DNA of 64,000 bases, from positions 6,359 through 70,358 of IMG/VR virus record IMGVR_UViG_3300021197_000975, one strand, 5' to 3'. The position numbers and the translations under genes were made by a program. Under the pieces are notes generated by a model that made no database searches, was not told the DNA's origin, and saw nothing but the letters and a program-made list of their open reading frames with translations. Position 1 is the stretch's first letter. Each line of letters opens with the position of its first letter. Positions 29,963 through 58,304 of the stretch are shown here, in pieces. The stretch comes from a virus.

Positions 29963-29966
29963 ATAA

Positions 29967-32900: not shown

Positions 32901-34802
32901 ATTGCTTCTTCAGATGATGTCTTTCAAGGCTTTGATCAAGATCCTGTTACAGCAGGAGAAGAGTTCCACTATAAGATCTTTAAGAATGGATCTAAAGTTT
33001 TAGGAACGATAATGTTATCTGGGATGACTATGGGACGAGATGGCTCAGATGCAACAAGGCGTATTGGGGCTTACGAAATAAAAGTAGATGGACAAGGTTT
33101 GGTTACAGATGAGCGAAATAAACCCGGTATACTAACTCGTTGGATCGCACAACACGGACACGAGATTAGTGATATAAGAACAGCTATGTTGGCTCGTTTT
33201 GCTCAAGAAAAAATGTATGGTGGAGAGACTAAAAACACAATTGATTATATGAAAGAAATGATTGACGTAGCTGTACGTAATGGTTTTGGTAATGACTTAG
33301 CTGTTAACCCTATGACTGGAAAACGAGAAACTTTATATGAATTAGCTGCACAGTTGGATCCAAATAGCGGAAGTTATGTTGAAAACAATTGGTACACTTA
33401 TGCAAAACAACAAAGTAATAAGTGGTATGGAAAGTATGACCACTTAGATGGCCCCTCACACACCACTAGCCACGCCTTCGCAGGACTAGATGATGAAGAA
33501 AAAATTACATTTAGGTTGTCTGAGTTTGATGATGTCTTATTAAACCCCGGCGCTGACTTTACCGGAGATATAGGCTTGTCAATGGAATGGGGAGGAGATG
33601 ATATTGATTTCTATGGGGGTGAAGGAGTACCTGTTGCTGGATACAGTAGCATTTTGATTGCCGCATCAAGAGCTGCTCATACCTATGCAAATGAAACTGC
33701 TAATGCGTATGGAGGACAGACTTTATCTGGTGCTCCGGGTTACTACCAAAATGCTGTATATCAACAGATTCCAGAAATGAATGAGATGTTTGAAGGGACT
33801 GGGGATCCAAATCTAAGAGTTGGAAGCCTTTCTGCCCATGTAGAACTTATGAAATTACATACTAATAGAAATTCGGTTGTTCCGGGCATGACTAGATACT
33901 CCCAGCCTATAACTGTGCCTATGCAATCCTCAGATGGCACTACAAGATTTAGAACACAACGTAATCTTAATCCAGAATATAGAGGAAAGTTATCTGCATT
34001 AGGTCACACATACTTAACACAAGAGAGCATTGATCTACAGGGAGAACGTTACCCATTATATGCTGGTGCTGAACTTCCTGCTATGTCATTCCTTCTTTCT
34101 GCTCCTTCTCATGATAATGAAATTGGTGGAACTAGGTGGGAAGTTGCCAAGCAAATGATAGAACAAAACACAGGCATGACAATGGCACAGTATGGTCAAG
34201 CAGGAGGAGATATAAAAAAACTACATAGCTGGGCAATGGATCCAGATATGGTAAATATGCAGTTCTTTGCTCTTATGGGAAAAGATGTCTTTGATACAGC
34301 GAATTCAAATATGTTTGGAGGAGCTGCTCCTCACATGGGACCAGTTACAGATAACTTGAGTAGCAATACTTCAGTTTTTCAAACAAGACAAACTAGATCT
34401 AAAGAAGGCGTAGGTGTTCCTATTATTGATACTAATGAAACAAATGCTCTTGGTCATGTTGCATTAAAAGCTGTAACAGTTGAAGGGGGAAATCCTGTAA
34501 CTATTATGTATGTACCACCTGAGTTATTTGAGACTGGGACTTCTCCGGGCAATAAAAGGGTTGCACAAAGACTAAACCAATTATCTTATGATTATTTAAC
34601 CTTTGATGAAACACATACTGGAAGACCTAGACGATTTATGGGCATGAGGAAAAATTGGTTAGGAATGCCCGTTGCTACTGTTCCTCCGGGGGAAGATCCG
34701 TTGCAGGGAGAAGATCAAGATATGGGACACCCTGCTCCGGTTTGGGATAACCCTGATGAGCCTTTCTTCAAAACAATTAATCAATACTGGAGACACAGAT
34801 AA
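29967..34802 (+). CDS. Large internal virion (ejection) protein, gp15-like position
   Basis: 1611-aa helical protein following the gp14-like gene; no recognisable enzyme motif. Confidence 0.6.
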   Translation: MLNDMYKSLNVNPDSSANVVKQVGPVKKVSGGNVTVDVTQEGLVDAATQQWDELSRMAADSAEGIKNYGLISEGIAEGEGDQKKDIALWNKEQEHIMAATTAAEDVRNNLPDSNGNNLYEVQIGLNENGSPVMATYDLNDPQKREEAAGMAYQKRLEGIDIVSTRGQAAHQGHLRVQADRMRGLTAESADKDVARIEEIYNEFLSSEGIDYNPSLAYNAWQNNAEVQQISTRIGMLPTDQYWRQQQQLETLQSGMRFSQVKHQKEEMVRDITALTNGQVKGLLDEMADVVVDPSMDPSQKAGFILYALNEQGLLTPEVTASIGITGGGDVAWGVASGSPTESLLTDPNHNSWKKFLNVVLNSSIASDVEQSGLSPAFVETAISNAVNLRSSDINGYVSQNISNIKDAVQKDREVRFNLAQQRVREITQEKYDSSSQSRLGSQIQIMGEQSFGAAGLSSDAFADGATAAAIDVLSAGSAGPHRNVEWVTENFIRGLLVDTQDGMFDSQEQLIDRANKRRLVAGSRLNQFLEGRDDGQGYSLVDSEGRINEQGARFLWREYQNLAGKIRNDPAYQARVMTWFEVAINLAPGDANALDQTRVVDTMVHAISLITGDEYSDEETAVIAARLGALGEEDRLALVELIPELTDKTYKQFESILTRVVKTGQAALGERQAALTKAIRDTDGILEVDKKRHGRLLVSTARNAFLVGTNSAEEMSLVRELDKHFKYAQATGTALSYIVGDEYSAKLLDPFEAVANHISHLHGGLADPALEQDIMSMYLGYKNTLGTFALTASHLNSMPGVKLDTASLPDNVEPIGMFLQNPSKAFVEADTDGDGKMELSISPDFASSIAVEASRVWAWSSDHRLRGNTEYESNVQSYLGHIVDYVHLLGDTTLEPDQRMKVATSLHAIMYALQPLEYTADTDAPPMRSYSLVEREGNAIVKSTIEIPEVKMGDIARNLLRLSDMDDDATTVSSITGMIASSDDVFQGFDQDPVTAGEEFHYKIFKNGSKVLGTIMLSGMTMGRDGSDATRRIGAYEIKVDGQGLVTDERNKPGILTRWIAQHGHEISDIRTAMLARFAQEKMYGGETKNTIDYMKEMIDVAVRNGFGNDLAVNPMTGKRETLYELAAQLDPNSGSYVENNWYTYAKQQSNKWYGKYDHLDGPSHTTSHAFAGLDDEEKITFRLSEFDDVLLNPGADFTGDIGLSMEWGGDDIDFYGGEGVPVAGYSSILIAASRAAHTYANETANAYGGQTLSGAPGYYQNAVYQQIPEMNEMFEGTGDPNLRVGSLSAHVELMKLHTNRNSVVPGMTRYSQPITVPMQSSDGTTRFRTQRNLNPEYRGKLSALGHTYLTQESIDLQGERYPLYAGAELPAMSFLLSAPSHDNEIGGTRWEVAKQMIEQNTGMTMAQYGQAGGDIKKLHSWAMDPDMVNMQFFALMGKDVFDTANSNMFGGAAPHMGPVTDNLSSNTSVFQTRQTRSKEGVGVPIIDTNETNALGHVALKAVTVEGGNPVTIMYVPPELFETGTSPGNKRVAQRLNQLSYDYLTFDETHTGRPRRFMGMRKNWLGMPVATVPPGEDPLQGEDQDMGHPAPVWDNPDEPFFKTINQYWRHR

Positions 34803-37577
34803 ATGGGGTATATAAATAGAATTCTTCAAGAAGAAAGAGATGTCACAGAATTAGAAAGAATATATGCTAACGCGAGAAGTGAAGCATATCAGGGTGACTA
34901 TACTACAAGTGCAGAAGCTTTAAATTCTCTTGGAGAAGATTTCGTAAACTATGGAACCTTTTTTATTTCTCCTGATCAGAACCAATCAGAAGGTCAAGCA
35001 ATGTACAATGACTACCTTCAGGATATATCGAAGGCGGGATTGGCAATGGAAGATGCCCTAAAGGCAGGAGTCTTAGGGTCTGGATATGATTCTTATACTA
35101 AAGAACGTTTAAGAAACCAAGGGTATGAATATACTTCAATGATAGATGACAAGTCTGTTATGGGAGAGTTTGTCCTGCCGGGTGTAGAAAACTCAATGGG
35201 GTACTGGGATGCTAATTGGTGGGCTACATGGGCTGATAAGCATGGTGGATCTGGTATAGCTGGAGAAGAACTACCCACTCTTTATACTGTAGCAAGACAA
35301 TACTCTACTGGAGCTGACACAACATACAAAGAATGGGCAGAGAAAACCCCCGGTGCTCAAATTTCTGAATATGATAGAGAAGCCGCAGAATATTATCAGA
35401 AAGATTCTAACAACTGGGAAAGATTTCTTCCATGGGATGGAGCTGCTTGGAGACACCCTGTTCTTGCAAACTTAATTGTAGTTGCTAATCCAAGCGACGA
35501 TAAATATAACTGGACTTTCCCCGGTAACTTCTTTTCTTCCAGAAGACAAGAGGGTTGGGATGGTAAGAAAGCTTACGAAGTATTTGAAAAAACAAACCCC
35601 CATCTTTTAAAACTAGCCCATGCTATTGGTGTTTCTAGGGAGACTCTTGAAGCTAGCCCTAACCACTGGGAATTTAGGTATGCGATAAATAATGCTGTAC
35701 AGATGTATACAGTAAGTGGAGTCTTAGACAGAACCAGTGCAAGGGGCAGTGGGTTTGGTAATGCTTCTAGGTTCGTTGGATCATTTGCTTGGAATACTCT
35801 AAATTCTGCTGACATGCCTGTTGAAATAGCAACTGCTATATTGACAGGGGGTACATCCCTCACTTATACAGCAGTCAAGGGGTCCGCTACTCTTGCTAAG
35901 ATTGGGTACAAAACGAGTAAACGTGTTTCTAGATTAGAACGAATGTTTAATACGACCCGAAAAGTAATTGGTATAGGAGGCAGGAGTAGATATGGTAGAG
36001 TTGCCAGAAGAGCAGAGGTAGATAAGGCTGACGTTGATGTACTTACTAACTGGTCCTTAAAAACAAGGAAGCTCAGGAACTTGATGGCGAATATTCACTC
36101 TTGGATTCCTTCTAACATCCCTGATAAAATTATTATGGGAGGGTACAGAAAAGCTTTTGGTACTGAAATGGGGTTAGGAAAAGGATTTAAGAATTATAGC
36201 CAGTTCTGGCTGACGAGAAGAGGGTTAGATTTTGGGATTGGCACAATTGAAGGAGCAATGTATGGAGCTCTCAACCAGTATGATGGCAATGATGGCTGGG
36301 ACTGGAGCCGATTCTGGAATGAAGTTATTACCGAAGGTGTTGGTCAGGTATTTGCTGGGCCTACTTTTAGAATGGTTTTGGGTAGAGGTGTGATGGCCCC
36401 TGCTCACAAGATAGGAAAATCAACTTTGAATAAGATTTATGAAAAAATGGATTTTAGTCCTGAGGTCAGGGCGGCAATAGATGCTGCATACAAACCTATC
36501 ATGCCTAACTTTGATAGGATGACAGTAGAGCAACAGGAGTCTATATTGTCTAGTAGAATTATGTTAGGATTAGCTCATTCAGGTTATGGGAAAATAACAG
36601 GAACAGATGGTCCTATTCCCATGTATCTTCAAAATATGGTGGATGAAATTAGTGCAGCTACTGGAATTCCAATCGATGCACATTCAGCGATAGATTCAAT
36701 ATATACAAAGGCTACTGATTCCGAAGGGAATACAACCGAATTAACTGAATTAGAAATGTCATTAGCATTAATTCATGCTGTTATGAATCAGGTTGATAAC
36801 CAAGGTCGGCAGGTTCTTCAGGTCAAAGACCCAGAGACCGGAGAAAATGTAGGGCAAATACAAAGTTTGTTAAGAACTGCAATCCTACACGGTTTGGTAC
36901 ACGAGAGAGCAACTAAAGGAGGGACTGTAGAATTAGAGGGAGCTGATTTAGTTGCTGCTCAAGTACAAGCATTAGAGGAACTAGCTGGGGTTGATCAGGT
37001 CGAGTTACAAAGTATTGTAGATAGCGCTTTAAAAGCAACTAAAACAGTAATGGAAAAGCTGGGGATAGACGCATCAGCAATTGTGACTACCGCAGGTAGA
37101 AGCGTATCATCTGTCCAACGATTGGATGCCCCAACTATAGAAATCTTAAGAAGGTTATATAAAGAAAATAAAAATATAGACTTGGGAGATGGTATTGCCC
37201 CAGAAGATATTGCAGCTATTCGGGAAGACACCTCCGATCCTGACACACCTACAGATGTAGATGAAGCAACGGGAACTGGAGAAACAACGGGAACAGAAGC
37301 CATAGATAGTGCAGCTTCTACACCTCCCCCTCCGGTAGATAATACTCAAACTGAATCTGCTAATGCAGGAGAAGGACAAGAAACCACTCCTTCCGAGCCA
37401 GCAGCAGTTGAAGGAGAAGATGGTTCTTCACTGCCCGATCAGAAACGAGTTGAAGCTGCCGTGGAACAAAATGCAAATATAGATACCTTACAAGAGCTTG
37501 GTCTTACAAAAGAACAACTAGCTGATGCACTTGAAACATATAATGAGAATAATTCTTGTTTTAGAGGAGTCAAATAA
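34803..37577 (+). CDS. Internal virion (ejection) protein
   Basis: Gly/Ala amphipathic segments (IATAILTGGTS; GTIEGAMYGAL) typical of ejection proteins; acidic low-complexity tail. Confidence 0.6.
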   Translation: MGYINRILQEERDVTELERIYANARSEAYQGDYTTSAEALNSLGEDFVNYGTFFISPDQNQSEGQAMYNDYLQDISKAGLAMEDALKAGVLGSGYDSYTKERLRNQGYEYTSMIDDKSVMGEFVLPGVENSMGYWDANWWATWADKHGGSGIAGEELPTLYTVARQYSTGADTTYKEWAEKTPGAQISEYDREAAEYYQKDSNNWERFLPWDGAAWRHPVLANLIVVANPSDDKYNWTFPGNFFSSRRQEGWDGKKAYEVFEKTNPHLLKLAHAIGVSRETLEASPNHWEFRYAINNAVQMYTVSGVLDRTSARGSGFGNASRFVGSFAWNTLNSADMPVEIATAILTGGTSLTYTAVKGSATLAKIGYKTSKRVSRLERMFNTTRKVIGIGGRSRYGRVARRAEVDKADVDVLTNWSLKTRKLRNLMANIHSWIPSNIPDKIIMGGYRKAFGTEMGLGKGFKNYSQFWLTRRGLDFGIGTIEGAMYGALNQYDGNDGWDWSRFWNEVITEGVGQVFAGPTFRMVLGRGVMAPAHKIGKSTLNKIYEKMDFSPEVRAAIDAAYKPIMPNFDRMTVEQQESILSSRIMLGLAHSGYGKITGTDGPIPMYLQNMVDEISAATGIPIDAHSAIDSIYTKATDSEGNTTELTELEMSLALIHAVMNQVDNQGRQVLQVKDPETGENVGQIQSLLRTAILHGLVHERATKGGTVELEGADLVAAQVQALEELAGVDQVELQSIVDSALKATKTVMEKLGIDASAIVTTAGRSVSSVQRLDAPTIEILRRLYKENKNIDLGDGIAPEDIAAIREDTSDPDTPTDVDEATGTGETTGTEAIDSAASTPPPPVDNTQTESANAGEGQETTPSEPAAVEGEDGSSLPDQKRVEAAVEQNANIDTLQELGLTKEQLADALETYNENNSCFRGVK

Positions 37578-40500
37578 ATGAGTTGTAGTTTAAATTTTCT
37601 AGATGATTTGAAACAGAAGTTTATAGATCAGGGTAATTCCGAAGCCGATGCAAACAATATGGTGGAGGCCCTGAAGATTGCTTCTTCTGATCCTAGATCT
37701 TTTAGGAAACATGTTGCAAGTGAGAAACTAAAGGAAACATGGACATCCGAAAATAAAGCCGATCTTCAAGGACTAATGAATAAGGTTCTTAAAAGCAAAG
37801 ATGGCACTCTTCTTTTTGATTCATTAAATGAAGAAGAATCCCAAAGTCTTAAATATTTATTAACGAAAAAAATGGCTAAAGATAATGACCAAGCTCCAGT
37901 AGTGCGTCCTTCGAATGCTGATGTTAGGATACAAGCAGAACAAGAACTAGAAACAGAGATCGAAAGACTACAAGAAATTGGTGATGATCGTGGGGCCGCA
38001 AGAAACCAACAAGCTTTATCTCATCTACAGCAGATTAGGAAAAATAATTCTAGGTTAGGTAATCAATATGAAAGCATCAGCGAGAGCATTGACAGTAGAG
38101 ATCGCCTTCGAGAACAGCTAGTTCTTCTAGATGTTTGGCTAAGAAATGTTGATGATGGTAATAAAAAAGCTGAAGCTCGTATAAAAGAAATGAATGAGCA
38201 GCTTAAAACAATCAAAGATGACAAGTATAATCAGGCCAAAGCAGATAAAAAGACTTATGAAAAACAGATAAAGAAGCTTAAATCTGAACTCAAGTCTATT
38301 AAGAATAAGAAATCTGAGCCAGCTAATAAAATTAAGCGGGAAATAAAAGAAAAAGAAGGTAAATTAAAAGAAGCAGTAGCTATAATTCAAAAGGCTGACA
38401 GGGAAGCTGGACCCCTCGAGAAAAAAATAAATAGGATTATAGAAGCAGCAAGAGAATTAAGCGATAAAAACCCTGAGGTTAAGAAGCTTAGAAAAGCCCA
38501 TAGCGCTGCCGAAAAGAAATTAAAAGATGTTATGGCAGAATTAAATAAGGCAGGGTTTGCTTCTGATGGCTTCCTTCAATCTATTGTTCAAGGAATTAAT
38601 ACTGCTGTAACAGCTAGACAGTTAGCTGAAGATCTCCAAAGAGCTAGGCAAGATGAGGCTCTTCGGATTGAGTTAATAGATTCTTATTTTGATAAGAACC
38701 ATAAAAATTATATCAAGCCTAAGGAAGAGAAAGAAACTACTCTTAGCAGGGATATCTTAAGTGAAATTCTTGGGCCGAGCTTTGTTGTATCTAGAACAGA
38801 ATATGGACAGGTGCTAACTAGAGAAGAGATAGATGTTTTATTAAAAGAGTGGAGAAGCCTGAACTATAAGTATGCTGGAGAGCATGGCCTGTTAATTGCA
38901 GATCTTACTTTTGCAGATCAACAATCACTTGAAGCAATGCAGGAGCAATCTACTAATGAAGGTAAGTCGGTAGATGAAACAGATAATAATACTATTATTA
39001 TTCCTATGTTAACACAAGCTCAAGCAATGGAAAAAAGCAATCCCGGTGTTATTCCAGATGCGAACGCTCAATTAACCCCTCAGGAATTAAAGCAGAGATT
39101 ACTTAAGTTTGTTCGAAAGCTAGAAACTCTTCGCTCATCTGTTGGCTATGGTAAGTATGTTGGTCTACAACATGTAGAAGCAGTCTTAAATAATATGCCC
39201 GGTCTTGACGATGTAAGTGCTCAAATCTGGTTTGATGATGCTGTTCGAGTCTTAAATGAAGAAGGTATTGAGACCCTAACCCACACGGAGAGACAAGAAA
39301 CTCTTAGGCATATTCTTAGATTAACTGGGATGACTGATGCAGAAATAAGTTCTTTGCCGGAAATGATTGATTATGGGAGATGGCTCCAAGATTTGGATGT
39401 CCATGATAAGGAAAACCCCATGCCCCTAAATCAAGTTGTTAGTTTTGATATTGAAACCCGAGGTAAAAACAACGAAGAAATTATTGGCTGGTCAATCAAA
39501 AGAATTGATGGTACAATAATTAATAGCAGAACTATTGGCGAAGCTATGACTAAAGAAGAAGCGCAGGAAATGCTTGCCCTGTTAAATGATCTCCAAAACG
39601 ACGGTTATAAAGTTGTAACTTTTAACGGTAATAGTTTTGATATGAATACATTGGGCGCGCTTGCAGAAAATCAACAGATGGGCGTTAGAATTGCTTATCG
39701 AAGTCTTGATGTTATGCAGATCCTTAGGACTTTTAAATCCCAAATCCATACTGAGGATGATGCACAAAGTTTATATTTTAGTTTAAACAATGTATCTAGA
39801 GCCTTAGGAATGGGAGGAAAGTTTGGAACAGTCGGGCCGGAAGGATCTGTTCTCAGGAACTTAGGTAAGTGGTATTATTTAGTACACAAGAAAGCTACCA
39901 CAGGCGAAGACGTAACATTTGCAGATATTGTAAAGAATGGTGAGACTATGGCAGAAGAGGATGCTCAATCTATTTTAGATGAAATAAATGGTATGAGTTC
40001 TGAAGAAGCTGCATCTTATCTCGACCAATATCTTGATGCAGATGCTATGCTTCCCGCTCAAATTCTCTATGGAAATGGAGCACAAGATGGCCTGTTTAAT
40101 ATGATGGGAAGAAATGTTAAAATTAAAAGCGCTAATAAGGGGGAAGCTACAGTGGAAATAGCAGCTCCTACACCCACTTGGGCCTTGACTTCAAATGTTA
40201 CTGAAGCAAAGCAAGATAGGTGGCATGGGCTTGAATGGGCTAGGCACGTTGCTGATATTGGGGAAGTAATGACTTCCGCTTTCTCCTCTATTGATGATAC
40301 AAGTATTGTATCTGTAGATTTAGATCTTGCGATCAGTAGAGTATATGACGCTGTTATTAGAGCTCAGCATCTTGATCCATCTCAAAGGTTATTAGCCGAA
40401 CGAATGGTAGATTTAGCGAAAGAGACTCTTTCTAAAGAACAGCTACTTGAAAAAGAAAAGATTAATATTATCCAAGCAAACCGACAAGCTCTTGAGAATA

Positions 40501-43500
40501 TACACAAGGAAGAGTTTGAAACTGGCGAAAATGCTGGTAGATATCCCATCGAATTTGTTGGGGCTAATAAGATAAGATATACTAGCGGTGCGATAGACGC
40601 ACAGAAGGCGGAGTATACAGACTCAGTAGTGAATGGTTTCATTACGTTTATTGGTAAAAGAAAAGCAGTAGATCTTGATATCATTGCAAAGGATATTGGA
40701 TTTAGAGAACGAGCTGTTAATGAGGGTGATAAAAAGTTTGCTGAACAAATTATTAATTACTTCATCACTCGATTCACACCTCATCAAAAGTTCCAGTTAT
40801 CCGACTGGGGGGATGGAACTATTGACTATGCCCCTGCTAATTCTGTGGGTATTGCTATTGCACAGATTGTAACTACTCAGCCTGAGGGTGCTCGACTGCG
40901 TGACAATGCAAGGGATTGGATGGAAGGTGGAGCAGAAGAATTTTCTGAGTCGGCTAAGTCAGAAGATGAAGCTTACAAAAGAGAAACAACCTTCCACCCT
41001 CCTATCTTTGATGAAGTACATCAAGCTTTACCAAGATCTCTTGCTGAAGTTGAATGGGCTTATGATGATTGGAGATTGAGAAAAAGATTAGAACACATCT
41101 TAGATCCCAAACATATTACTACTAAGGAAGAAGCACTTGAAGTAATTCAAAGCTTAAGAGACAGAGAAGAAAATGAAAACGATGTTATTGGTGACACTAG
41201 AACACCAAGAATGGGATTAACGCCCAATGTATCAAACAGATTAATATGGAACAAATTACCTAGTCTGGAAGAGCATACGAACATGGTATTGGAATCCATG
41301 TTAGATATGCCCCAGATTCTTATGACTTGGGTTCATGATTCTGTTGCTCTTGGTGGTGATCATCAAATGTTCTTAGATCCCGATCTTGCTGAAACTTACT
41401 TTGAGGATAATGCTTTATCTCCCGGCTCTATGACTGGCTCGGCTCTTATTTCTGGATTAGGGATTCAGCTTGCTCATACTAGAGCCTATCCCGTAATTAG
41501 TATAGATACTGTTATCCAATCTTTGGAAAGAGGTATATCAGCATACGGAGATCATGGAACAGATGTATTTGCTAAGGGTAATTATTTTGATTACAAGTTC
41601 AATGGTCTTCACCACTTCCTTGCACTGATGTTGCAATACTCTCCTCAAGGAGCACAAAAATTAGATGAGTTCCTTGCTGAGTGGGAGCCAACAGCTTTCT
41701 TGTATAAAACATCTAAAGAAGCTCAGGATATTTATGATACGGCTGAAGAATTAATATTTGAATCTTTGACAAACCATATTAAGAATACACAAGAGGGACC
41801 AAAGAGATCAGAACTCCAAAAGCTTTTAAACTTTATGGAAAGTGATCCTTCTATTAGAGATGCCATGAAGAAGATTGTCATTCCTCGCCTTTACATGGGT
41901 GGTATAGATGCCATGAAATCTGGCCTGAAGGAAAAAGCAAGAGAAGAAGGATGGGACATTAATACAGATCTTCTGGCTGAACTTGCAATGGGACCGATTC
42001 AAGCTACTAAGCTTAGGGTGGTTGATAAGGCATTAGGAGGTCTTACTGATTCTGATAGGCGACAGCTTGCAGATGCTCTTGTAACAATGTATGGTGATAT
42101 CTATGACCACGGTCGGTGGCATGAGCAGTACAAAGATTATGTAAAAGAAAACCATTCTCTGATGGAAGGCAAAGAATTTGCGTTAAGTGATCTTCAATTT
42201 GCAATTCAAAAGAGAATAGAATTTATGGTAGAAATCCTTACACCCAAAACTGCAAACGATGGTCTTAAACTAAGAGAGCGTAAGGGTAAAATGCTAACGC
42301 TTATTCAAGAAAGATTCCAAGGAAGAATACAAAAAGCTATTGATTTTGTGAATGAAAAGGGTGGTGTTATAAAAAACCAAGAAGATATGCGTCAGCTGCA
42401 TGTTATTATTTCAGGTAGTGAGTCTGCTTGGAAGACGAGTGGAACCTTAGCGGCTATGAATGTAATGGGCCGAACTGGATACAGATTAAGATCAGGTGAA
42501 AAGATAAATGAAACCGATACACTTCTTGAAGCCCAAAGGCAAATCATTGGTAGACATTTAACAGAAGAAGATTTGTTAAACTACCCAAGCCATTTGGTTT
42601 ACTTTGCAGTGGGTCAGGACAGTGCTGGTCAGAGATTATATTATCACTCCAACAACTGGGGAGTTCAGCCTCAGAATGTTCCGGCTGCTCAGGTTTATCG
42701 AGAGAATACTCATAAGGGTGAGGATGATAACCCCTATGGTATGTGGAAAATGGAACATAATAATCTTGCTAGCCTCTCAAAAGAGGATGCTGAAACTGAA
42801 GTAATGAAGTTAGTTGCTAGAGACTTGTCGGTTAGAATGGCAGGCTCTCATGCTCCTCAGTTTGGGGGCTATTCAACCAGACCACTTAAGGTTACAAAGG
42901 ATAATGTTAAAACACCCGGAGATGAAACAAGAGAAGGGTTCTGGAGAGATCTTAAGAAAAGAAGCACTGAAGAAGATAATGCTTACGTTAGAGCACTAAA
43001 TGAAGAAGCTAACTGGATATCAGCTGAAGAAAGAATGAAGGCAGGCGTTAGTATGGAAGGCGATGCAGCTTTAATTGATAAGCTTAAGCAGAGAAGAAAG
43101 ACAACGGGCCTGCGAAGAAACGCAACCAGAAATGTTTTAGACCCCACTCGAACTTTAAATAGAGCACAGAATGAAATCTATGTCCCGTCACAAGATGCAT
43201 CGGTTAAGGGACTTGGAGCATTTAGACCACAGTATGCTGACATCCCTTGGGCAGAAAGAGGGATCATGTCTATGGCAGAGGCTCGTTCAAACTTCAAAAT
43301 AGATAGAGGGTATAACGGCAGAATACACAAAGACGCATTAAGCAAAACTCCTGAATCTATAGCAGATGTTATTCCTTCAAGTGCAAGAGGATGGCAAGGA
43401 AAATATCAAGGATCGGATGCTCCATATGTTCATGAAACACCTATTGATTTTATAGGTGAAGGTATTCTTGGAGCTGGTCGAAAGAGAATTGCTAGAAGAG

Positions 43501-46500
43501 CAGAAGGATTAAAGAATGTTCTTGAGAAGTTTGCTGTAGAGAAGGGCCTTCAACATTTTTCAGAAAAGAATGATTGGACTTCTTTATACGTTAGGTGGCA
43601 AGTTGATAAGAAAATCACGAGACCTTTCCTTAAAGAGATCAGTGCTCTTGAAACTTCTACTGGAGCAACAAGGGGATCTAGTAGGCAGCAAGCTTTATTA
43701 GCAAGGGCCAATATGCTTTCTTCTCTTACTGGACTGCACCAGTTCCATAGAGATGTGAGCCAGCAGAATATGACACTAATTGAATATGGACAAATGCTTG
43801 GATTCCATCCTGAGGATTTAAAGAAGAGTGCTGCAAATCCAGAAGAAGGGAACCAAGCGTTCTATTGGGCGGACTTCTTTAAGTTACTCGCCAACCGAGG
43901 TGTGACAAATCTTGCACCCCTTACAATAAATATAGATGCTAATTCATTGAGTCCTGTCAATCTTACAGCAGAAGGTAATATTCTAATGGGTGGGGAAATG
44001 ACTGCCACCAGTAAACAAACTAGAATTATTACTTTAACTGTACAGCATAATGAAATGTCTCAGGTTCTCTTTACTCTCTTCTATGAACAGAGGGGAAGAG
44101 AAATCGCACAAGAATATCTTCAATCAAAAATGAGTGAAGCAGCTTATGGAAGGTTAAAGAAAGATGGAGCAGGTTTCCCAATGTTATCTGAAGTTCCAAT
44201 GTCTTTCCAAACAGAGTTAATGCATAGGTTGATTGAGGACAAAGAACTTCTTTCTATTGCTATAGATAATATGGGGTTACATATTATTCTCGATTCTTAC
44301 ACTAATGAAGCATTGGCTAGTATTGGTCCTCATAATCTTGACCCTGATAAAACACTTAGGCCCGGCATGCTAACAGGTGGCCTTCATAATTTCGCTGTTA
44401 ATGAAAACGCAGGGATGTATGGCATTACACCTGAGATTGCAAATTCTATGTTGTCTTCGTTAAGAAATACTGTAGTTAATAATACTGCGGAACTTGTATC
44501 TATTACTGGATCTCAGATGGGGCAAGTGGAAAGCCCATCTATGAGATTAAGAGATCAGGCTAAAAGAGATTTCTATGAATCACAGCGAGATGGATTCTCA
44601 GATGAAATGGATGCATTGTCTTATCTTCATATAACAAACAATGTTGATCCCCCAAAGTCTGTTAGGAATCCCAAGTTAAAGAATGAATACGGACAACCTG
44701 TTGTTGTTTATGATGCACCACATTACTTTGCTAAGAAAGACAAGACTACTGGATTGAATCCAGTTGAAGAAGGCTTTGCGGGATACATTAGATCGGCAGC
44801 CTTAAACGCTAGAGCTTTGGGATTAGAAACTGAAGGTAAATTACTTGCGCAAATTTTAAACCCAAAGTCTACTCTATTCCGTACAAAGTATTTACGAGAA
44901 GCTGTAGTCATTATTGTTGAAGCTTCTGGAAGTAAGATGGATTCCTTATTTAAGCTTGAAGCTTTCTTGCCCGGTAACTGGACAAGAGCTGACATTGAAG
45001 TTCTCTATAATGAAGCAACAAAAGTTAGAAAGGGATCCAAAATGTCTATTGTGGATGCTTATAGGATTGCAGCTTCAAGAACCATGGAAAGAAATACCTT
45101 CATCTCTCCCGCCAGAAGATACGTAGAATTGAACGGGGAGATAGATGAATTAAATATTTCAGCAGACTTTGCCGCTTATATTGGAGCAGATGTTAGCAAT
45201 CCCGAAACATTACTGCAAGCAAGGGCTGCTGCTAGAATTGCAAACAATTCATTAAAGGAAGTATCTTCAGAAGTTGAAGCCTTTAGTGGAATGGATGATG
45301 ATATTTCTCTTATGGAAATATCTGATCCCGAAGGCTTCTGGCATAAATACGGTAACGAGGGATCATCAATTACAGCCCAGATTTCAAGTATGGTTGGAGA
45401 AAATCTAATCACTCCCGAGACAGCTGCTTTCCTTAGGCAGATGATGGGTGTTGTTCTGTCCCATAATAATGATTTTGCAAATGGATTAAGTTTAATTCAC
45501 GATCCTGAAATCTCTAGAGCAAGCATTGCTGAGAAGTATGGCGACAAATACAGTATCCGTATTAACCCAGACTTAATTAAAAGAATGCCTCAAGCTGAAA
45601 TCATTAAAGTGTTTGCTCACGAGGTTGTGCATATTGCTAGAATGAAGTATATGGAGAGTGGGGATAGAGCTTGGAATTCTCTTGTTGGTGTTTACTCTAC
45701 AGAAAATGGTAGAGAAACAATGAGAGGCTTAATTACTATCATGACTAACGGAGATAGTAATGCAGTCAATGATGCAATGGAATACTATACAGGTAACATT
45801 GATGAGTTCCTTGCTGAGTGGGGTGCGTATTACTTGATGGCAAAGACATTAGGTAATCATACTGTTGTTAACGAAGTTCAGAATCTTAGGAATACTGATA
45901 CTACAGCAGAAGAAACTATGCAATGGTGGGACCGTGCGTTTAACTACATTAAGCGTGTCATGGGTAGCATTCACCAAAAGCTTTCAATTATGCAGCAGAC
46001 TAACCCTGAAGTATACAAGGAGATGAGTACTATTGTTGATGGCTTGTTCAACTTCGATAATGCTCACGAATTAACCGGCAGACCTCTAGCCAAGAATCCT
46101 AACATGCGAATGGGAGTTGCAAAACATACTCGCATGGGGCCTGACTTTGGTAGACCTAGTGATGAAAATTCTAGGATTAATTCGTTGGCTGAAGTAATCT
46201 CAAGAGAAAAGAACTTACGTAATACAGGAGCAGAGAGTGATACCAACCATCCCCGACATGAGGAATGGTTAGCTGCTACTGAAACAATTAGAGCCGAAGG
46301 ACTTCTTGATCATGATATCTTAGGTATTCCTCATAGTGAATACATATCAACACTACATGAAATGTGGGATGCTGATACTGGAGAATTTAAACAGCCAGAA
46401 AACGATAAGGAAGAAATGATAATGATATCATATCTCCTCAAGCAAGTTGCTAGACAAAGAGGAGAAAGAGTTGATTCTCCCGGTACGTTTGGACATCTTC

Positions 46501-49500
46501 TTCGAAAGGTGTTCCCTGAGTTTACTGAAACCGTACAAGATTTCTTATACAATAACAGTAACAGAACAGATAAGACTTGGAACAGTAAGGTAGCAATAAT
46601 TGCAAACCTTGCTTGGCTTCTTGACAATACTAAAGCAACAACTGAAAATGCATTTCAGGCTGAAGGTAACGGTATCATCCATAATAAAAATTACATCGAA
46701 CAATACTCAAGAAGAGTTACTGAAGCTTCTAATCTTATTCGAAGTACATATGATAAGTCAACAGCTATGGGTATTGAACAGACGGCATTCTCTTTGCTGA
46801 TGGATCCTGAATATGTTCTTCCCACTACTCTTACTGAAGAACAAAAACAACATGCTACTATGCTGTCAGATATCTTTAGAGCTAACCATGGGCAATTACT
46901 TAACATGGCTAAGGACATGCTTCTTAGAAGAGAAGGAAGAGAAACACATTCCAGCAATCTTGCTCTTAGATTAAATAGAGATTTTCTTCTTAGACAAGAG
47001 GGAAGGCGTGAAGAATTCGTCACAGCACTTGCTAATAAGCAATCAAGAAAGTTGCAAGCTTCTCTAATCCCAGCAGGAACAATTGATTCTACTCTTGTTT
47101 ACATGAGTGGTCTTGTTCCGCGAGTTATAACTAATCCAGATGGGAACAGTGTTCACCCTGAGTTTATTAATGAACTGGTAAAATACACCCGTGAAGATGC
47201 TCCGGGTGCTTTGAAAGCACAGTTAAAAATACTTGATAGACTGGCCTTGGAACAATTCCAGAAGAGCAATAAGGACTTGGATAGTGAATTATTAGCTAAT
47301 GAATTTGATCCTGAGGGAGAGAACCATTATCACAATATGGCTATTTATTACCAAAGAGCGGTAGTCAAGTTACTTAAAGATACTACAAATAAAAAGATAA
47401 CTTATAACGAGTTGTTTGATAAGGGTAGATTAAGTCAAGGTGAGCGAGGAGCTATCTTTAATTATCTCCAGAACAGAACAAATGTTGTTGAAGATGGTGG
47501 CGGTACTCTTGATGCGGTAGGTCGCGCTTCAGATCTAAAGTCTGGGCTTGGTGACATATTTAGATTAAGACAGGACATCTCTTCTGATATTGATGTCTGG
47601 GCTGGTGTCTCTCCAGATGCTGCCAGAATGAAGACAGCTTATCTTTTAGCACAGGTTGGTAACTCTACCTTCATTCCCTATGAGGATGGAACAGAATTAA
47701 CTATTACTGATATCTTTGGTCCTGATCAATATGGCGATGAAAGAGAACATTCTATTGTTCAAGCTGGGTTTACTCGAGATCTTAGACAGATTATCCGAGG
47801 AACTCAACGTGGTCTAGGAGCTGCTGCCCACACAAGAAAGGTTATCAAAGAACTTACTGGCGTAAACATGGACTTCAAAAGAATAATTGGATCATTACGA
47901 AGATATCTAGATGAGTCCCCTTACGCTACTCATATTTCTGAATCCGTTGATTTTAATGGCTTAGATAAATCTACCGGCGACCAAAAAGCTTTCATTCAAA
48001 GAGGGCTCGCACATCTCGAAAGAGTATATGAAGTAGGGATGAACATTGGAAACAGAGTTGAAATTACAGATAGAGCCGCGTGGGATACACTAGCAAAGTT
48101 TGGTCCTGATATTTTGACATACGTCTGGGGTCCAAACCTTAATGCTGCTAACTTAATCTTTGAGGGCGGGTTGTCTGGATTAACTACAGCTATGTATGGT
48201 GGTAATCCTGTCCAACTTTACTCTGATATCCTTGGTAATACCTTCTCACTCATATGGAAACTACGAAAGGGAATGTCAAACTTAGAATTCACTGGGCAAT
48301 TGAGAGCTTTGGGTGATGCTATGTTTGATACTGATTCAGCCTTACGTGACTTTATGGAAAACGATGTCTTTGAAAATGATCAATTCTTTGAGGAAGAAGG
48401 AATTCCTTTAAATGAAAGAGGCCGTAAGGCTTACTCCGGTTGGATTAAGGGATTAAGAACCTATAATAATATATCTGCTATGGCTGTTAAGATGGCAACT
48501 ATGAAGCAGGGCCACCGTATTCTTATGAAGAATCAAGAAAAATTACGGGAAATGATAGAGTGGAATAATAATTATGACGGTCCTGATAATATGAACAAGT
48601 TCCATAAGATGAAGAAGGAACTTGGTTTAAGATTCAGGGGTGAGGTTGCACAGATGTTTATGGAATCTGGTCTACTTAAAGAAGATAGTGCAGATAAATT
48701 AGATTGGATTATGGCTAATGTTCCTATGGTTCGGGGGATGATAGATATGTCATCTCTTAGAGAACGTATTGAACAATCTCCTAATGCTACTATTACCCAA
48801 GGGAATTCTGAATTTGCACTTAAAGATCTTTGGGAGTTTGCAACATCTATTGAATTGTTTGCTGATAAGTATTCTCAGCTTTCTGTTGTGAAGTCAGATC
48901 CCCTTGATAAAGATGTGGATAGTAATGCTGCGTGGTATCTTAATGCTTTATACCGCCAGTTCCCTAACTTGTTTGTGGCCCAGCATATTCTCCGTAAGGG
49001 AGCAAGGCATGGTATGGGTCCGTATGCTATGACCCTTAGTGCAGGTGTTGTACTCGATCTTATTTACAACTTATTCCTTGCCGCCTTGTTTGGAATGATT
49101 GAGCCAAAGGATTTCTCACGCTGGGCAAAGGGAGACTTTGATACCTCTGATCTCCTCCTTATTGGTAGATCTATTGCTAGATTCCCCGGATTTGGTATCA
49201 GAGGTAATGCGGCTACTGAGGCAGCAATGGGATTGGGATATGGTATTGCTAAATATACTGGAGGCGACATGGATTTAGCTAGAGCAGGAACCTTAGCTAT
49301 GCCCCTGCCAGTAGTTGCTGGAATTCGTTGGATAGAGAATATGTGGGCTGGTGTAAACAATCCCCTCAAATACGCATTAGCTGATTCTTCTGCGGATAAA
49401 GAATACTGGCAAGAGAAGACAATACGGGACTATGTGATGGCGGCAAAGAGTATGATACCCGGATTGAACGATAGTATTCTTACTTCGGTTATGAATAACG

Positions 49501-50179: not shown

Positions 50180-50274
50180 AATCGACTATAGGGGTCGAGA
50201 ATTTGGACGGGGGGAGTATAGCTTTGAAGTTGAAGCTATCCCCCAGTACCCCCCCTTCAAAGGAGATACATACC

Positions 50275-50457: not shown

Positions 50458-50464
50458 TCTCACT

Positions 50465-50862: not shown

Positions 50863-50870
50863 ACGTGACA

Positions 50871-51110: not shown

Positions 51111-51135
51111 GATAACTTTGGAAAGGAGGTTTGTC

Positions 51136-57871: not shown

Positions 57872-58304
57872 GACTGAGTATTCTAGTTATGTGGATAGAA
57901 TATTATCCCATCCAAGGCACACACATCTTGCTGTTCAAGTAGGAGATTGGTGCTATCATATCACAACTGATGCTACTCCTGATAACTCTAAGGCTTATTG
58001 GGTTAGTGAAGAAGTTAGTAATAGACTGTGGAAAAAACCACTCACAAAAATACTAGTAGGGACAACAGATAAGAAGTGGGAAGACATTGTAAACTTTAGT
58101 TTAAACTGGTCTTCGCCGTTGTATCTAACACTCATTACTTATTTTACCTTTAGATTATTTAGGTGGAAGAAGGATTGTGTTACTTACTCTAGAAAATATT
58201 TAGAGTATCTTGTAGGAATAAAGATTAAGCATCCGCATTCCGTAACCCCAGATGGTTTTATCAAGGAGATATTAAACTGTGGGTATAAAAACTCAATGGT
58301 ATGA
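57810..58304 (+). CDS. Putative permuted papain-like (NlpC/P60 superfamily) enzyme
   Basis: His motif HTHLAVQVG precedes Cys motif DCVTY...VTPDG, the permuted order. Confidence 0.5.
   Translation: MKKRLPTQFPSNPQVYLLGYKTEYSSYVDRILSHPRHTHLAVQVGDWCYHITTDATPDNSKAYWVSEEVSNRLWKKPLTKILVGTTDKKWEDIVNFSLNWSSPLYLTLITYFTFRLFRWKKDCVTYSRKYLEYLVGIKIKHPHSVTPDGFIKEILNCGYKNSMV

What the first reader, a model, noticed from the sequence alone, without database searches (positions are those of the whole stretch)
40860..43160. Candidate virion RNA polymerase domain inside the 4106-aa ejected protein
Seen in order: WNKLPSLEEHTNMV (~DKVSFEERVQWV of the canonical RNAP); motif A-like YFDYKFNGLHHFLALM (Asp at 41589); QDIY (41724, ~NDLY); motif B R-x3-K-x7-Y as RDAMKKIVIPRLYMGG (41856-41903). 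A tentative motif C follows: SMEGDAAL (43062) then NVLD (43140) 26 residues later, versus SIDAAH..IHD at 25 residues in the canonical enzyme. Motifs A and B are persuasive; motif C is weak. Known: N4 packages a ~3500-aa virion RNAP of this family. Inference: an injected polymerase for the first genes, or an inactive polymerase-derived module.
Basis: partly seen in the sequence, partly recalled or inferred. Interest (0 to 1): 0.85.

Follow-up and report, generated by a model that had tools for sequence, protein, structure and literature searches.

The report
Hidden RNA polymerase in giant phage protein
A 4106-residue protein of an uncultured marine T7-like phage hides a very diverged T7/N4-type RNA polymerase module and looks built to be injected with the DNA, which would give this phage group an N4-style way of starting infection.

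Summary
Motif A (D1338), QDIY (D1384) and motif B (K1431, Y1439) are real. These residues are invariant in 28 of 28 full-length relatives at about 20-50% identity. Two AlphaFold models place 1384-1506 on the fingers/O-helix of T7, mitochondrial and N4 RNA polymerases (Z 9.6-11.4).

Better candidates are an invariant H1253-D1254 hairpin upstream of motif A and a T/DxxGR-like hairpin (R1686) downstream of motif B. That order is non-canonical and remains unexplained.

No sequence profile recognises the module: Pfam, PHROGs, PDB and hhalign were all non-significant. I could not test whether the palm superposes.

The protein has 1 Cys in 4106 residues, and N4 vRNAP has 0 in 3500. It carries a downstream HExxH peptidase, as N4 vRNAP does. 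It also ends a Cys-poor gene set placed after the terminase. All of this favours an ejected virion polymerase.

Du et al. 2025 described these large proteins of group AG-10.1 as having unclear function. Earlier scan notes cover this same window only.

Verdict: a new variant of a known kind, with confidence about 0.6.

The parts
37578..49898 (+). Giant ORF of 4106 aa (P0001). It belongs to a family of ~4000-aa proteins of uncultured marine T7-like phages.
   Evidence: One search found 46 representatives at E<=0.001, most of them 3700-4230 aa. It has 1 Cys (C3) in 4106 residues.
39444..40043 (+). RNase H-like / DEDDy-type 3'-5' exonuclease domain (aa 623-822)
   Evidence: Pfam PF13482 at 1.5e-6 over aa 623-743. 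Weak match to the family B DNA polymerase exonuclease in PDB, E 0.0072. D624 23/28, E626 23/28, D688 24/28, Y818 23/28, D822 23/28.
40980..43313 (+). Polymerase-like module as folded (aa 1135-1912)
   Evidence: AF2 model md80012ff8183: pLDDT 82.5, pTM 0.80, 42-row alignment. In the ESM Atlas, 24 of 30 named nearest clusters carry PF00940.
41322..41351 (+). Beta-hairpin with invariant H1253-D1254 at its turn (aa 1249-1258). Candidate motif C, lying upstream of motif A.
   Evidence: H1253 and D1254 are 28/28 and 38/38. Strands at 1249-1252 and 1255-1258 in the model. A segment HMM lands on the T7 800-820 bins, where T7's HD (811-812) lies, in 61 of 61 T7-like RNAPs; the scores are low and the set has little diversity.
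41583..41639 (+). Motif A: strand ending in D1338, then a helix (aa 1336-1354)
   Evidence: D1338 and G1343 28/28, H1345 27/28. Strand 1336-1338 and helix 1342-1354 in the model. hhalign pairs it with T7 536-550, E 0.088, not significant.
41727..42095 (+). Fingers subdomain with QDIY and the motif B O-helix (aa 1384-1506). R/K1427, K1431, Y1439 and G1442 lie at nt 41856-41903.
   Evidence: VIA-align: T7 RNAP 3e2e_A Z 9.6-10.0, POLRMT Z 8.5-8.8, yeast mtRNAP Z up to 11.4, N4 mini-vRNAP Z 5.9-6.1. K1431 28/28; Y1439 26 Y + 2 F.
42444..42677 (+). 'ALN'-like element (aa 1623-1636) and T/DxxGR-like hairpin with a PQ(N/G) tail (aa 1673-1700). Both lie downstream of motif B.
   Evidence: R1686 28/28 and 37/37. 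It is the top hhalign hit to N4 mini 423-438 (E 0.016) and T7 411-455 (E 0.054), neither significant. A segment HMM lands in the bin that holds the N4 site in 31 of 31 N4-like vRNAPs, median 8.2 bits against -4.6 on reversed sequences. The ALN element pairs with T7 316-342, E 0.084.
43050..43142 (+). NVLD). Not part of a conserved motif.
   Evidence: The stretch is gapped or variable in most of the 28 relatives, and neither Asp reaches 26/28.
45543..45806 (+). Zincin-like metallopeptidase motif (HEVVH at aa 2681-2685, plus E2743)
   Evidence: Pfam SprT-like at 8.2e-5, 22.9 bits, below the 25.6-bit cut-off. E2682, H2685 and E2743 are 28/28. The first His is H in 14 and E in 14 of 28.
49044..49100 (+). 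Single strongly hydrophobic segment (aa 3823-3841)
   Evidence: Kyte-Doolittle mean 2.02 over 19 residues.
29228..37577 (+). Three upstream ORFs (244 aa with two hydrophobic segments, 1611 aa, 924 aa). With the giant ORF they form a Cys-poor set after the large terminase and are the likely ejection proteins.
   Evidence: TerL lies at 27579-29240. The set has no family hits. Cys counts are 1, 0 and 1. A ~1350-1610 aa plus ~900-1070 aa pair precedes the giant ORF in the related loci.
58279..60726 (+). The phage's canonical T7-type RNAP (815 aa), used for comparison and not part of the giant protein
   Evidence: PF00940 at 3.4e-76 and phrog_414 at 1.8e-151. BLASTP against aa 1001-2100 of the giant gives a best E of 6.4.

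Best explanation
The central part of the 4106-aa protein (about aa 1215-1710, folded here as 1135-1912) is a very diverged single-subunit polymerase module of the T7/N4 (Pol A) type.

Shown:
- A motif A Asp on a strand followed by a helix.
- A QDIY element.
- A motif B O-helix carrying the Lys and Tyr.
- A fingers subdomain whose nearest solved structures are single-subunit RNA polymerases.

Inferred:
- The second catalytic Asp is D1254, in an invariant His-Asp hairpin.
- R1686 in a T/DxxGR-like hairpin completes the active site. The palm elements would then be present but strung in the order C-like, A, B, T/DxxGR instead of T/DxxGR, A, B, C.
- The whole protein is packaged in the capsid together with the three preceding Cys-poor proteins.
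- It is threaded unfolded through the tail and periplasm on infection. It then transcribes the first-entering genes (the small-ORF region after 49.9 kb, which includes two further RNAP genes), in the manner of phage N4 gp50.
For: Conservation and structure of the module:
1. Thirteen of 1100 positions are 28/28 invariant at about 20-50% identity. They include D1338, G1343, D1384, K1431, H1253, D1254 and R1686. The same holds in 37-38 rows of A7. By my arithmetic, three randomly chosen positions would all be invariant about 2 times in a million.
2. Two independent AF2 models give the same top matches among 48,161 PDB representatives: T7 RNAP Z 10.0 and 9.6, POLRMT Z 8.5 and 8.8. Unrelated rows reach at most 7.1 and 5.7 respectively. 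The top 26 rows of the second look are all single-subunit RNAPs, with Z up to 11.4.
3. The alignments start in register at QDIY.
4. In model 2 the His-Asp sits at a hairpin turn, and D1338 ends a strand before a helix.
5. In the ESM Atlas, 24 of 30 named hits carry PF00940, score 0.91, 179 of 256 features shared.

Literature and architecture:
6. Du et al. 2025 (PMC12361551, sections 17-18 read) report that all AG-10.1 genomes carry a 3274-5566-aa protein. Four of those show PF00940 and eight show PF13482.
7. A polymerase followed by an HExxH peptidase is also the N4 vRNAP arrangement (Iyer et al. 2017, PMC5512222, passages read).

Signs of ejection:
8. The protein has 1 Cys in 4106 residues and N4 vRNAP has 0 in 3500. 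The phage's own RNAP has 0.5%, TerL 1.6% and RNR 2.8%. The neighbouring 244-, 1611- and 924-aa proteins have 1, 0 and 1 Cys.
9. No other candidates for internal or ejection proteins turned up in the structural module.
Against: - No sequence method recognises the module. Pfam at E<=1 gives neither PF00940 nor the four N4 vRNAP families. PHROGs gives nothing. phmmer and a family profile against PDB give nothing for RNAPs. A six-frame PF00940 scan finds only the canonical RNAP in this genome, and nothing inside the giant genes of the 10 related records scanned.
- All hhalign comparisons have probability under 4% and E 0.011-0.87.
- Short segment HMMs of motifs A and B did not land on the A and B motifs of T7-like or N4-like enzymes.
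- Foldseek found nothing at E<=0.001 in PDB or BFVD.
- The structural match covers only about 85-127 residues of fingers. The palm did not align.
- The Atlas 'recognition' value of 1725 is below the 2300 the tool calls reliable.
- The motif order is non-canonical.
- The acidic residue of the T/DxxGR-like hairpin is Gly in 7 of 28 relatives.
- The phage already encodes one canonical RNAP and one cryptic RNAP.
- Packaging and ejection are unproven, and the physical genome ends are unknown.
Confidence: 0.6

Rival explanations
1. The module descends from a polymerase but is catalytically dead. It survives as a structural or nucleic-acid-binding part of an ejected channel-forming protein, the analogue of T7 gp16.
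For: The palm did not superpose. The motif order is non-canonical. No profile recognises it. Two other RNAP genes in the genome could do all the transcription.
Against: The residues a polymerase would need (D1338, K1431, Y/F1439, H1253-D1254, R1686) are among the very few invariant positions over about 20-50% identity. They are kept more strictly than the exonuclease residues (23-24 of 28) or the first peptidase His (14 of 28). That pattern is not what a relic would show.
Confidence: 0.15
2. An active polymerase-bearing giant protein that is made early in the cell and not packaged. It would be a cytoplasmic host-takeover 'polyvalent' protein encoded at the leading end of the genome. Du et al. 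place the gene in the region upstream of the RNAP genes.
For: Du et al. 2025 describe the gene as part of the variable region upstream of the RNAP (PMC12361551, section 18). The physical genome ends are unknown. Contigs of relatives break at different places. No virion-protein family hit was found for the giant or its neighbours.
Against: Cysteine is almost absent from the giant and its three upstream neighbours, 3 Cys in 6885 residues. N4 vRNAP is the same, unlike this phage's cytoplasmic enzymes. The genes follow the terminase on the same strand, and the set begins with a small protein with two hydrophobic segments. The structural module otherwise lacks ejection-protein candidates.
Confidence: 0.12
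3. The module is a DNA polymerase or another template-dependent nucleotidyl transferase that works with the upstream DEDDy exonuclease. It would fill in or repair the entering genome end rather than act as an RNA polymerase.
For: An exonuclease-then-polymerase order recalls family A DNA polymerases. Pol I-type DNA polymerases appear among the structural matches: Aquifex Pol I Z 5.9, apicoplast Pol Z 5.5.
Against: RNA polymerases score far higher (Z 9.6-11.4) than DNA polymerases (Z at most 5.9). The Atlas neighbours carry PF00940. The stretch after D1338 (x4-G-L-H-H-F) resembles the T7 RNAP stretch after D537 in the hhalign printout. The phage has its own T7-type DNA polymerase.
Confidence: 0.08
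4. Chance resemblance: a helical bundle that happens to look like polymerase fingers, plus short motifs that occur by chance in a 4106-aa protein.
For: R-x3-K-x7-Y also occurs by chance elsewhere, for example at aa 382 of the phage's own RNAP. The tool notes that helical models can reach Z 13-14 by chance. All sequence statistics are non-significant.
Against: The two best matches among 48,161 representatives, and all 25 chains with Z>=8 in the second look, are single-subunit RNAPs. They align in register with the sequence motifs. Invariance of the motif residues and the language-model neighbours are independent of the fold search.
Confidence: 0.05

Closest known systems
Phage N4 gp50 virion RNA polymerase (Schitoviridae; mini-vRNAP PDB 2PO4/3Q0A, full RNAP domain 9PNQ)
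   Same: Both are giant proteins (3500 vs 4106 aa) with a central T7-type polymerase module at a similar position (998-2103 vs ~1135-1912). Both have a downstream HExxH metallopeptidase and almost no cysteine (0 vs 1). Both are encoded next to smaller ejection-type proteins (Bellis et al. 2026, PMC13434306, abstract and outline seen). The fingers align at Z 5.9-6.1 with 21% identity.
   Different: There is no detectable sequence relationship: the four N4 vRNAP Pfam families are not hit, and hhalign gives E 0.011-0.15. The host phage is T7-like in capsid, portal, tail tube, DNA polymerase and RNAP. This protein has an added DEDDy exonuclease and a different motif order. The peptidase regions share only the HExxH motif.
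T7-type single-subunit RNA polymerases (Pfam PF00940: T7 RNAP, mitochondrial POLRMT/Rpo41)
   Same: They are the best structural matches for the fingers/O-helix (Z 8.1-11.4). They share the motif A Asp-x4-Gly pattern, QDIY, and the motif B Lys and Tyr. They also have an HD hairpin and T/DxxGR-like elements.
   Different: PF00940 does not score. The palm was not superposed. The T/DxxGR-like element follows motif B and the HD hairpin precedes motif A. The module is embedded in a 4106-aa protein.
Large proteins (3274-5566 aa) of marine Autographiviridae group AG-10.1 (Du et al., Commun Biol 2025, PMC12361551)
   Same: This is the same kind of genome: about 70 kb, T7-like, with a typical ~800-aa RNAP plus an extra ~650-aa RNAP downstream of the large gene. 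The paper reports PF13482 in eight large proteins and PF00940 in four, and calls their function unclear (sections 17-18 read). The window's protein carries PF13482.
   Different: The text I read neither assigns a polymerase module to the PF13482-type proteins nor proposes virion packaging; 'vRNAP', 'internal virion' and 'Schitoviridae' occur 0 times. The supplements were closed, so I cannot tell which genomes hold the four PF00940-positive proteins, or whether this genome is in their set.
T7 gp14/gp15/gp16 ejectosome proteins
   Same: A set of small-to-large proteins of a T7-like podovirus. The last is the largest and has a hydrophobic segment. They are the expected channel-forming ejection proteins.
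   Different: No sequence or profile match. The genes lie after the terminase rather than between the tail tube and the fibre. This comparison is from recall of T7 biology plus gene order, not from a test.
Other virion-delivered RNA polymerases fused to large virion proteins (Thermus phage P23-45 tape-measure-fused RNAP, PMC10770324)
   Same: The idea is the same: a polymerase fused into a giant virion protein transcribes pre-early genes, including the gene for a second, non-virion RNAP (abstract seen in the listing).
   Different: According to that abstract, that enzyme is homologous to cellular multisubunit RNAPs, not to the T7/Pol A type.

Membership tests
T7/N4-type single-subunit RNA polymerase (Pol A superfamily) | Motif A: beta-strand ending in a catalytic Asp, followed by a helix | tested here: met
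   D1338 28/28 and 38/38, G1343 28/28. Strand 1336-1338 then helix 1342-1354 in the pLDDT 82.5 model. The sequence match to T7 536-550 is weak on its own, E 0.088.
T7/N4-type single-subunit RNA polymerase (Pol A superfamily) | Motif B on the O-helix (R/K-x3-K-x7-Y) within a fingers subdomain of the family's fold | tested here: met
   K1431 28/28, Y1439 26 Y + 2 F, position 1427 R or K. Residues 1384-1506 align to T7 569-707 at Z 9.6 (rmsd 4.0, 109 aligned), and in model 1 at Z 10.0 (rmsd 2.2, 95 aligned). Yeast mtRNAP gives Z 11.4.
T7/N4-type single-subunit RNA polymerase (Pol A superfamily) | Motif C: hairpin with the second catalytic Asp, located after motif B | tested here: not met
No invariant acidic hairpin lies after motif B; the acidic position of the 1681 hairpin is Gly in 7 of 28. 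An invariant HD hairpin does exist, but before motif A, so the function may be present while the defining order is not.
T7/N4-type single-subunit RNA polymerase (Pol A superfamily) | T/DxxGR motif located before motif A | tested here: not met
   A T/DxxGR-like hairpin with invariant R1686 and a PQ tail exists. It is the top local match to the N4 and T7 T/DxxGR sites. It lies about 250 residues after motif B rather than before motif A.
T7/N4-type single-subunit RNA polymerase (Pol A superfamily) | Palm with the two catalytic Asp side chains converging | not testable with these tools
The aligners report only sequential alignments, and these covered the fingers only.
T7/N4-type single-subunit RNA polymerase (Pol A superfamily) | Recognition by the family profile PF00940 | tested here: not met
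   No hit at E<=1. The six-frame scan at E<=10 finds only the canonical RNAP gene.
N4-like virion RNA polymerase (Schitoviridae gp50) | Recognition by the N4 vRNAP domain families PF21769, PF21894, PF21624 and PF21867 | tested here: not met
   These four families annotate all 120 listed N4 relatives. None is hit by P0001 at E<=1.
N4-like virion RNA polymerase (Schitoviridae gp50) | Architecture: long N-terminal region, central RNAP, downstream zincin-like HExxH peptidase | tested here: met
   Polymerase-like module at ~1135-1912, with HEVVH at 2681-2685 plus E2743. The N4 architecture is taken from Iyer et al. 2017. The peptidase match to Pfam SprT-like is below the curated cut-off, at 22.9 vs 25.6 bits.
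N4-like virion RNA polymerase (Schitoviridae gp50) | Packaged in the virion and ejected into the host | not testable with these tools
   Indirect evidence only: 1 Cys in 4106 residues against 0 in 3500 for N4, gene order after TerL, and a hydrophobic segment.
N4-like virion RNA polymerase (Schitoviridae gp50) | Encoded by an N4-like (Schitoviridae) genome | tested here: not met
   The genome is T7-like: T7-type portal, tail tube A and B, primase-helicase, Pol A DNA polymerase and an 815-aa PF00940 RNAP.
AG-10.1 large proteins of marine Autographiviridae (Du et al. 2025) | A 3274-5566-aa protein in a ~65-70-kb T7-like marine genome, upstream of small genes and the RNAP, some with PF13482 | tested here: met
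   4106 aa, PF13482 at 1.5e-6, in a 70,358-bp record with the RNAP downstream. Description from the paper. Formal group assignment by their core-gene phylogeny was not done.

The most novel reading that the evidence does not exclude
The giant protein is an active, virion-injected RNA polymerase of T7-like phages. Its Pol A-type palm is wired in a rearranged order: a motif C-like HD hairpin before motif A, and T/DxxGR after motif B. That would be a natural re-threading of one of the best-known enzyme folds. It would start a three-polymerase cascade (injected giant, then the cryptic ~640-aa RNAP, then the canonical T7-type RNAP) in an abundant marine phage group.
Probability: 0.3. Interest if true: 0.9.

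Novelty: new variant of a known kind. Interest (0 to 1): 0.72.

Why it matters
According to the 2017 survey of Iyer et al., N4-type virion RNA polymerases occurred only in N4-like phages or prophages. T7-like phages are the textbook case of relying on the host polymerase to express their own.

A hidden, injected polymerase in a globally distributed marine T7-like group would change how infection is thought to start in these phages. It would explain why they carry a ~4000-aa gene whose function was published as unclear. It would also explain why some of them have two further polymerase genes.

The module is a test case for how far a Pol A-type polymerase can diverge, and possibly be re-threaded, while keeping its catalytic residues. 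It shows too that profile searches miss such enzymes. Finally, a minimal active fragment could be a new promoter-specific polymerase for laboratory use.

Tried and rejected
Sequence searches that found no polymerase:
- blastn and tblastn of the region against 50,697 phage records: no match.
- phmmer of aa 975-1974 against PDB: 0 hits at E<=10.
- Family profile (A3) against PDB: 89 sequences at E<=10. The 60 shown are coiled coils and family B polymerase exonucleases, and none is an RNAP.
- Pfam and PHROGs on the whole protein.
- BLASTP against the phage's own RNAP: best E 6.4.
- hmmsearch --max of the family HMM against N4 vRNAP, T7 RNAP and the phage's own RNAP: E 0.007-0.038 at Z=1. The N4 alignments did fall on its T/DxxGR site and its NDLY/motif B site.
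- hhalign against N4-like (121 rows), T7-like (61 rows), T7 alone, the phage's own RNAP and the 642-aa ORF: probability always under 4%.
- hhalign after reordering the alignment blocks to mimic a circular permutation: no longer or stronger alignment. A simple circular permutation is therefore not supported, and the observed order (C-like, A, B, T) is not a circular permutation of T, A, B, C in any case.
- Segment HMMs: motifs A and B gave scattered hits no better than reversed sequences, and QDIY was inconsistent.

Structure searches:
- Foldseek on PDB for both models, and on BFVD: nothing at E<=0.001. N4 mini-vRNAP took ranks 1-3 and 6 at E 0.13-0.59 for model 2.

My first idea that YFAVGQDSAGQ (1675-1685) was motif C was dropped. 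The Asp is not conserved there, and the stretch matches T/DxxGR instead.

Searches for related giants and neighbours:
- I looked for a relative whose giant protein scores PF00940, to get a transitive link. None was found in 10 related records or in Pfam scans of the L008, L009 and L010 giants.
- The peptidase region compared with N4 matches only the 7-residue HExxH motif.
- Neighbouring 1611-aa and 924-aa proteins: no PDB, PHROG or Pfam match. The Atlas was uninformative for the 924-aa protein.
- The flank of the hairpin repeat after the giant gene was not found downstream of the giant gene in any related locus.
- Rfam and tRNA scans of 49.8-58.4 kb and of the window: nothing.
- Literature searches for a virion RNAP in Autographiviridae found no such claim. 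The StenR_269 paper (passages read) proposes a vRNAP in a different podophage from size, helicity and lack of cysteine alone.

Full report
WHAT IS THERE

The window is bases 6359-70358 of a 70,358-bp virus record that CheckV rates complete. All large ORFs are on the + strand. The gene content is T7-like:
- ribonucleotide reductase, T7-type portal, scaffold, major capsid protein, tail tube A and B, fibre-like proteins and large terminase;
- primase-helicase, a Pol A DNA polymerase and an exonuclease in the 6.3 kb that precede the window;
- an 815-aa RNA polymerase at 58279..60726 (PF00940 at 3.4e-76). It is about 28% identical to the RNAPs of cultured Autographiviridae.

After the terminase come ORFs of 244, 1611, 924 and 4106 aa. 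The finding lies in the last one, at 37578..49898.

THE OBSERVATION

The 'canonical' strings it compared them with are those of the phage's own 815-aa RNAP.

Standard tools see only two things in the giant protein:
- an RNase H-like exonuclease domain (PF13482, aa 623-743, 1.5e-6);
- a sub-threshold SprT-like HExxH peptidase (aa 2656-2688).

PHROGs and PDB sequence searches show no polymerase, and phage-genome BLAST finds no match for the region.

THE FAMILY AND ITS CONSERVATION

A full scan of 1.84 billion representative proteins with aa 1001-2100 found 46 proteins at E<=0.001, of which 33 were at E<=1e-30. Most are 3700-4230 aa, and they match at equivalent positions.

Related IMG/VR loci keep the same three-gene arrangement of ~1350-1610 aa, ~900-1070 aa, then the giant. 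All five related records first scanned also carry a canonical ~812-823-aa RNAP.

I aligned the 28 members of at least 3000 aa, which are about 20-50% identical to the query. Only 13 of 1100 positions are invariant. These are G1091, P1152, R1170, P1245, H1253, D1254, D1338, G1343, D1384, K1431, R1686, E1783 and G1878.
- Y1439 is Tyr in 26 and Phe in 2, and position 1427 is always Arg or Lys.
- If three positions were picked at random, all three would be invariant about twice in a million. That is my arithmetic. It is rough, because D and K are conserved more often than average.
- The same residues hold in all 37-38 covering rows of a 42-row alignment that includes a remote 5247-aa relative.
That part of the reading fails.

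STRUCTURE

The first AlphaFold model covered aa 1001-2100 with 29 rows. It was mediocre (pLDDT 68, pTM 0.56), with the motif A and His-Asp regions below 50.

I deepened and trimmed the alignment using sub-regions of fetched loci, giving 42 rows. The second model of aa 1135-1912 reached pLDDT 82.5 and pTM 0.80. It shows:
- H1253-D1254 at the turn of a beta-hairpin (strands 1249-1252 and 1255-1258);
- D1338 at the end of a short strand followed by a helix (1342-1354);
- R1686 in a hairpin (strands at 1678-1680 and 1687-1689).

Foldseek found nothing significant. The exhaustive VIA-align search of 48,161 PDB representatives put polymerases first for both models:

| Target | Model 1 | Model 2 |
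|---|---|---|
| T7 RNAP 3e2e_A | Z 10.0, rmsd 2.2, 95 aligned | Z 9.6, rmsd 4.0, 109 aligned |
| Human mitochondrial RNAP | Z 8.5 | Z 8.8 |
| N4 mini-vRNAP | Z 6.1 | Z 5.9, 21% identity |
| Best unrelated chain | Z 7.1 or less | Z 5.7 or less |

In the second look at Foldseek's 983 best chains, the top 26 rows are all single-subunit RNAPs: yeast mtRNAP Z 11.4, T7 about 10, POLRMT 8-9.9, N4 about 6. All 25 chains with Z>=8 belong to them.

The alignments begin at model residue 250 on T7 569, and at model residue 249 on N4 mini 609. They run to about aa 1506 on T7 707.

Only this fingers region of 85-127 residues aligns. The palm does not.

The tool warns that helical models can reach such Z by chance. 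What argues against chance here is that the top matches are one family, that they recur with two models, and that the register agrees with the motifs.

A protein-language-model search points the same way. Of 30 named nearest clusters, 24 carry PF00940 (score 0.91, 179 of 256 features shared). The query's 'recognition' value is below the tool's reliability mark, however.

THE REST OF THE ACTIVE SITE

Where is the second Asp? My first candidate was the Asp in YFAVGQDSAGQ (1681). It is Asp or Glu in 21 of 28 relatives and Gly in 7.

Its hairpin, together with the invariant R1686 and a following P-Q-(N/G), is instead the best local match of the whole module to the T/DxxGR sites:
- N4 mini 423-438, hhalign E 0.016;
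- T7 411-455, E 0.054;
- a short HMM of this segment lands in the bin that holds the N4 site in 31 of 31 N4-like enzymes, at 8.2 bits median against -4.6 on reversed sequences.

Just upstream, an 'ALN'-like element pairs with T7 316-342 (E 0.084).

The invariant His-Asp hairpin at 1249-1258 has the form of motif C: a hydrophobic strand, then H-D, then a strand. Its short HMM finds its best match in the T7 800-820 bins, where T7's own HD (811-812) lies, in 61 of 61 T7-like RNAPs. The scores are only about 1 bit, and the 61 sequences are close relatives of one another plus T7.

None of these sequence matches is significant alone. Motifs A and B were not recovered by the same short-HMM test.

Taken at face value, the order is HD hairpin, A, B, T/DxxGR. 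In T7 and N4 it is T/DxxGR, A, B, C. This is not a circular permutation, and reordering the alignment blocks did not improve hhalign. This is the main open point.

IS IT INJECTED?

There is no direct evidence. Four indirect lines exist:
1. The protein has one cysteine (C3) in 4106 residues. The 244-, 1611- and 924-aa neighbours have 1, 0 and 1, and N4 vRNAP has 0 in 3500. The phage's RNR, TerL, 642-aa ORF and canonical RNAP have 2.8, 1.6, 2.2 and 0.5%. The median among the 27 family members longer than 3500 aa is 1 Cys.
2. The polymerase-like module is followed by an HExxH peptidase motif (E2682, H2685 and E2743 28/28; first His in 14, Glu in 14). Iyer et al. 2017 state that N4-like RNAP modules are almost always fused to such a peptidase (passages read).
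3. The four genes follow the terminase. The set starts with a small protein with two hydrophobic segments, and the giant has one such segment near its end. The structural module has no other candidates for the internal proteins a podovirus needs.
4. N4 ejects gp50 together with two smaller proteins (Bellis et al. 2026; abstract and outline seen).

Against this, the neighbours have no recognisable family and the physical genome ends are unknown. Du et al. treat the large gene as part of the variable region upstream of the RNAP.

WHAT IS KNOWN

They report the following for group AG-10.1 of marine Autographiviridae:
- the genomes are large;
- all encode a 3274-5566-aa protein;
- eight of these proteins show PF13482, seven an SMC N-terminal domain and four PF00940;
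- their function 'remains unclear';
- 23 members have an extra ~650-aa RNAP downstream.

The words vRNAP, internal virion and Schitoviridae do not occur in that text.

The window fits this group. Its 642-aa ORF (51118..53046) is 25% identical (E 2e-27) to a 629-aa ORF of a related genome that scores PF00940.

So the giant proteins, and a polymerase domain in a few of them, are in print. Three things are not in the text I could read or in the searches I ran:
- a polymerase module in the PF13482-type giants;
- the N4-like architecture and cysteine depletion that point to ejection;
- the odd motif order.

VERDICT

- The module is very probably polymerase-derived, about 0.85.
- It is probably active, given which residues are invariant.
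- It is plausibly injected.

I put 0.6 on the full statement. This is a new variant of a known kind, an N4-style virion polymerase in a T7-like phage.

The decisive check is geometric, namely whether D1254 and D1338 meet. After that comes a polymerase assay and virion proteomics.

Noticed in passing
window 37584-37586 (aa C3 of the giant protein): The only cysteine of the 4106-aa protein is at position 3. An N-terminal Cys (position 3, 4 or 6) is invariant in all four alignments made: A1 and the three clade alignments A4-A6. The cause is unexplained. Possibilities include a processing, attachment or metal site.
   Followed up: partly
window 45618-45632 (aa 2681-2685): The peptidase motif is HExxH in 14 and EExxH in 14 of 28 family members. 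E2682, H2685 and E2743 are invariant. Half of the family therefore has a changed first metal ligand.
   Followed up: partly
window 39444-40043: A DEDDy-type exonuclease domain lies upstream of the polymerase-like module. Its acidic residues are kept in 23-24 of 28 members, less strictly than the polymerase residues.
   Followed up: partly
window 50436-50516, 50842-50922 and 54430-54450: Two 81-nt repeats (72% identical) each hold a CTCTC...GAGAG-type hairpin with differing stem letters and conserved flanks. A third similar hairpin lies at 54.4 kb. They sit just after the giant gene, in the presumed first-entering region. They could be hairpin promoters of the N4 kind, or terminators. The flank word was not found at the equivalent place in related loci.
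   Followed up: partly
window 50000-56000: GC content is 0.50-0.53 here against about 0.37-0.46 elsewhere. The region holds only small ORFs plus the 642-aa ORF. There are 19 terminator-like hairpins against 5.9 +/- 2.3 expected from shuffles in 49.8-58.4 kb.
   Followed up: no
window 51118-53046: The 642-aa ORF has no Pfam or PHROG hit of its own. It is homologous (E 2e-27, 25% identity) to the ~630-aa extra RNAP of related genomes that scores PF00940. That gene was seen in 3 of the 5 related records.
   Followed up: partly
window 15395-20032: The 1545-aa fibre-like protein has 77 cysteines (5.0%), by far the richest in the window and the opposite of the ejection-protein set.
   Followed up: no
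L008:2-15742 and L010:203-16279: Other uncultured phages carry still larger ORFs of 5247 and 5359 aa. The first contains a remote copy of the polymerase-like core (HMM E 8e-40 and 2.6e-7 in two pieces). The second matches only outside it.
   Followed up: partly
window 9931-15381: Tail tube protein B is 1816 aa. Only its last ~500 residues match the T7-type family (phrog_457, aa 1291-1806), so about 1300 residues are added at the N-terminal side.
   Followed up: no
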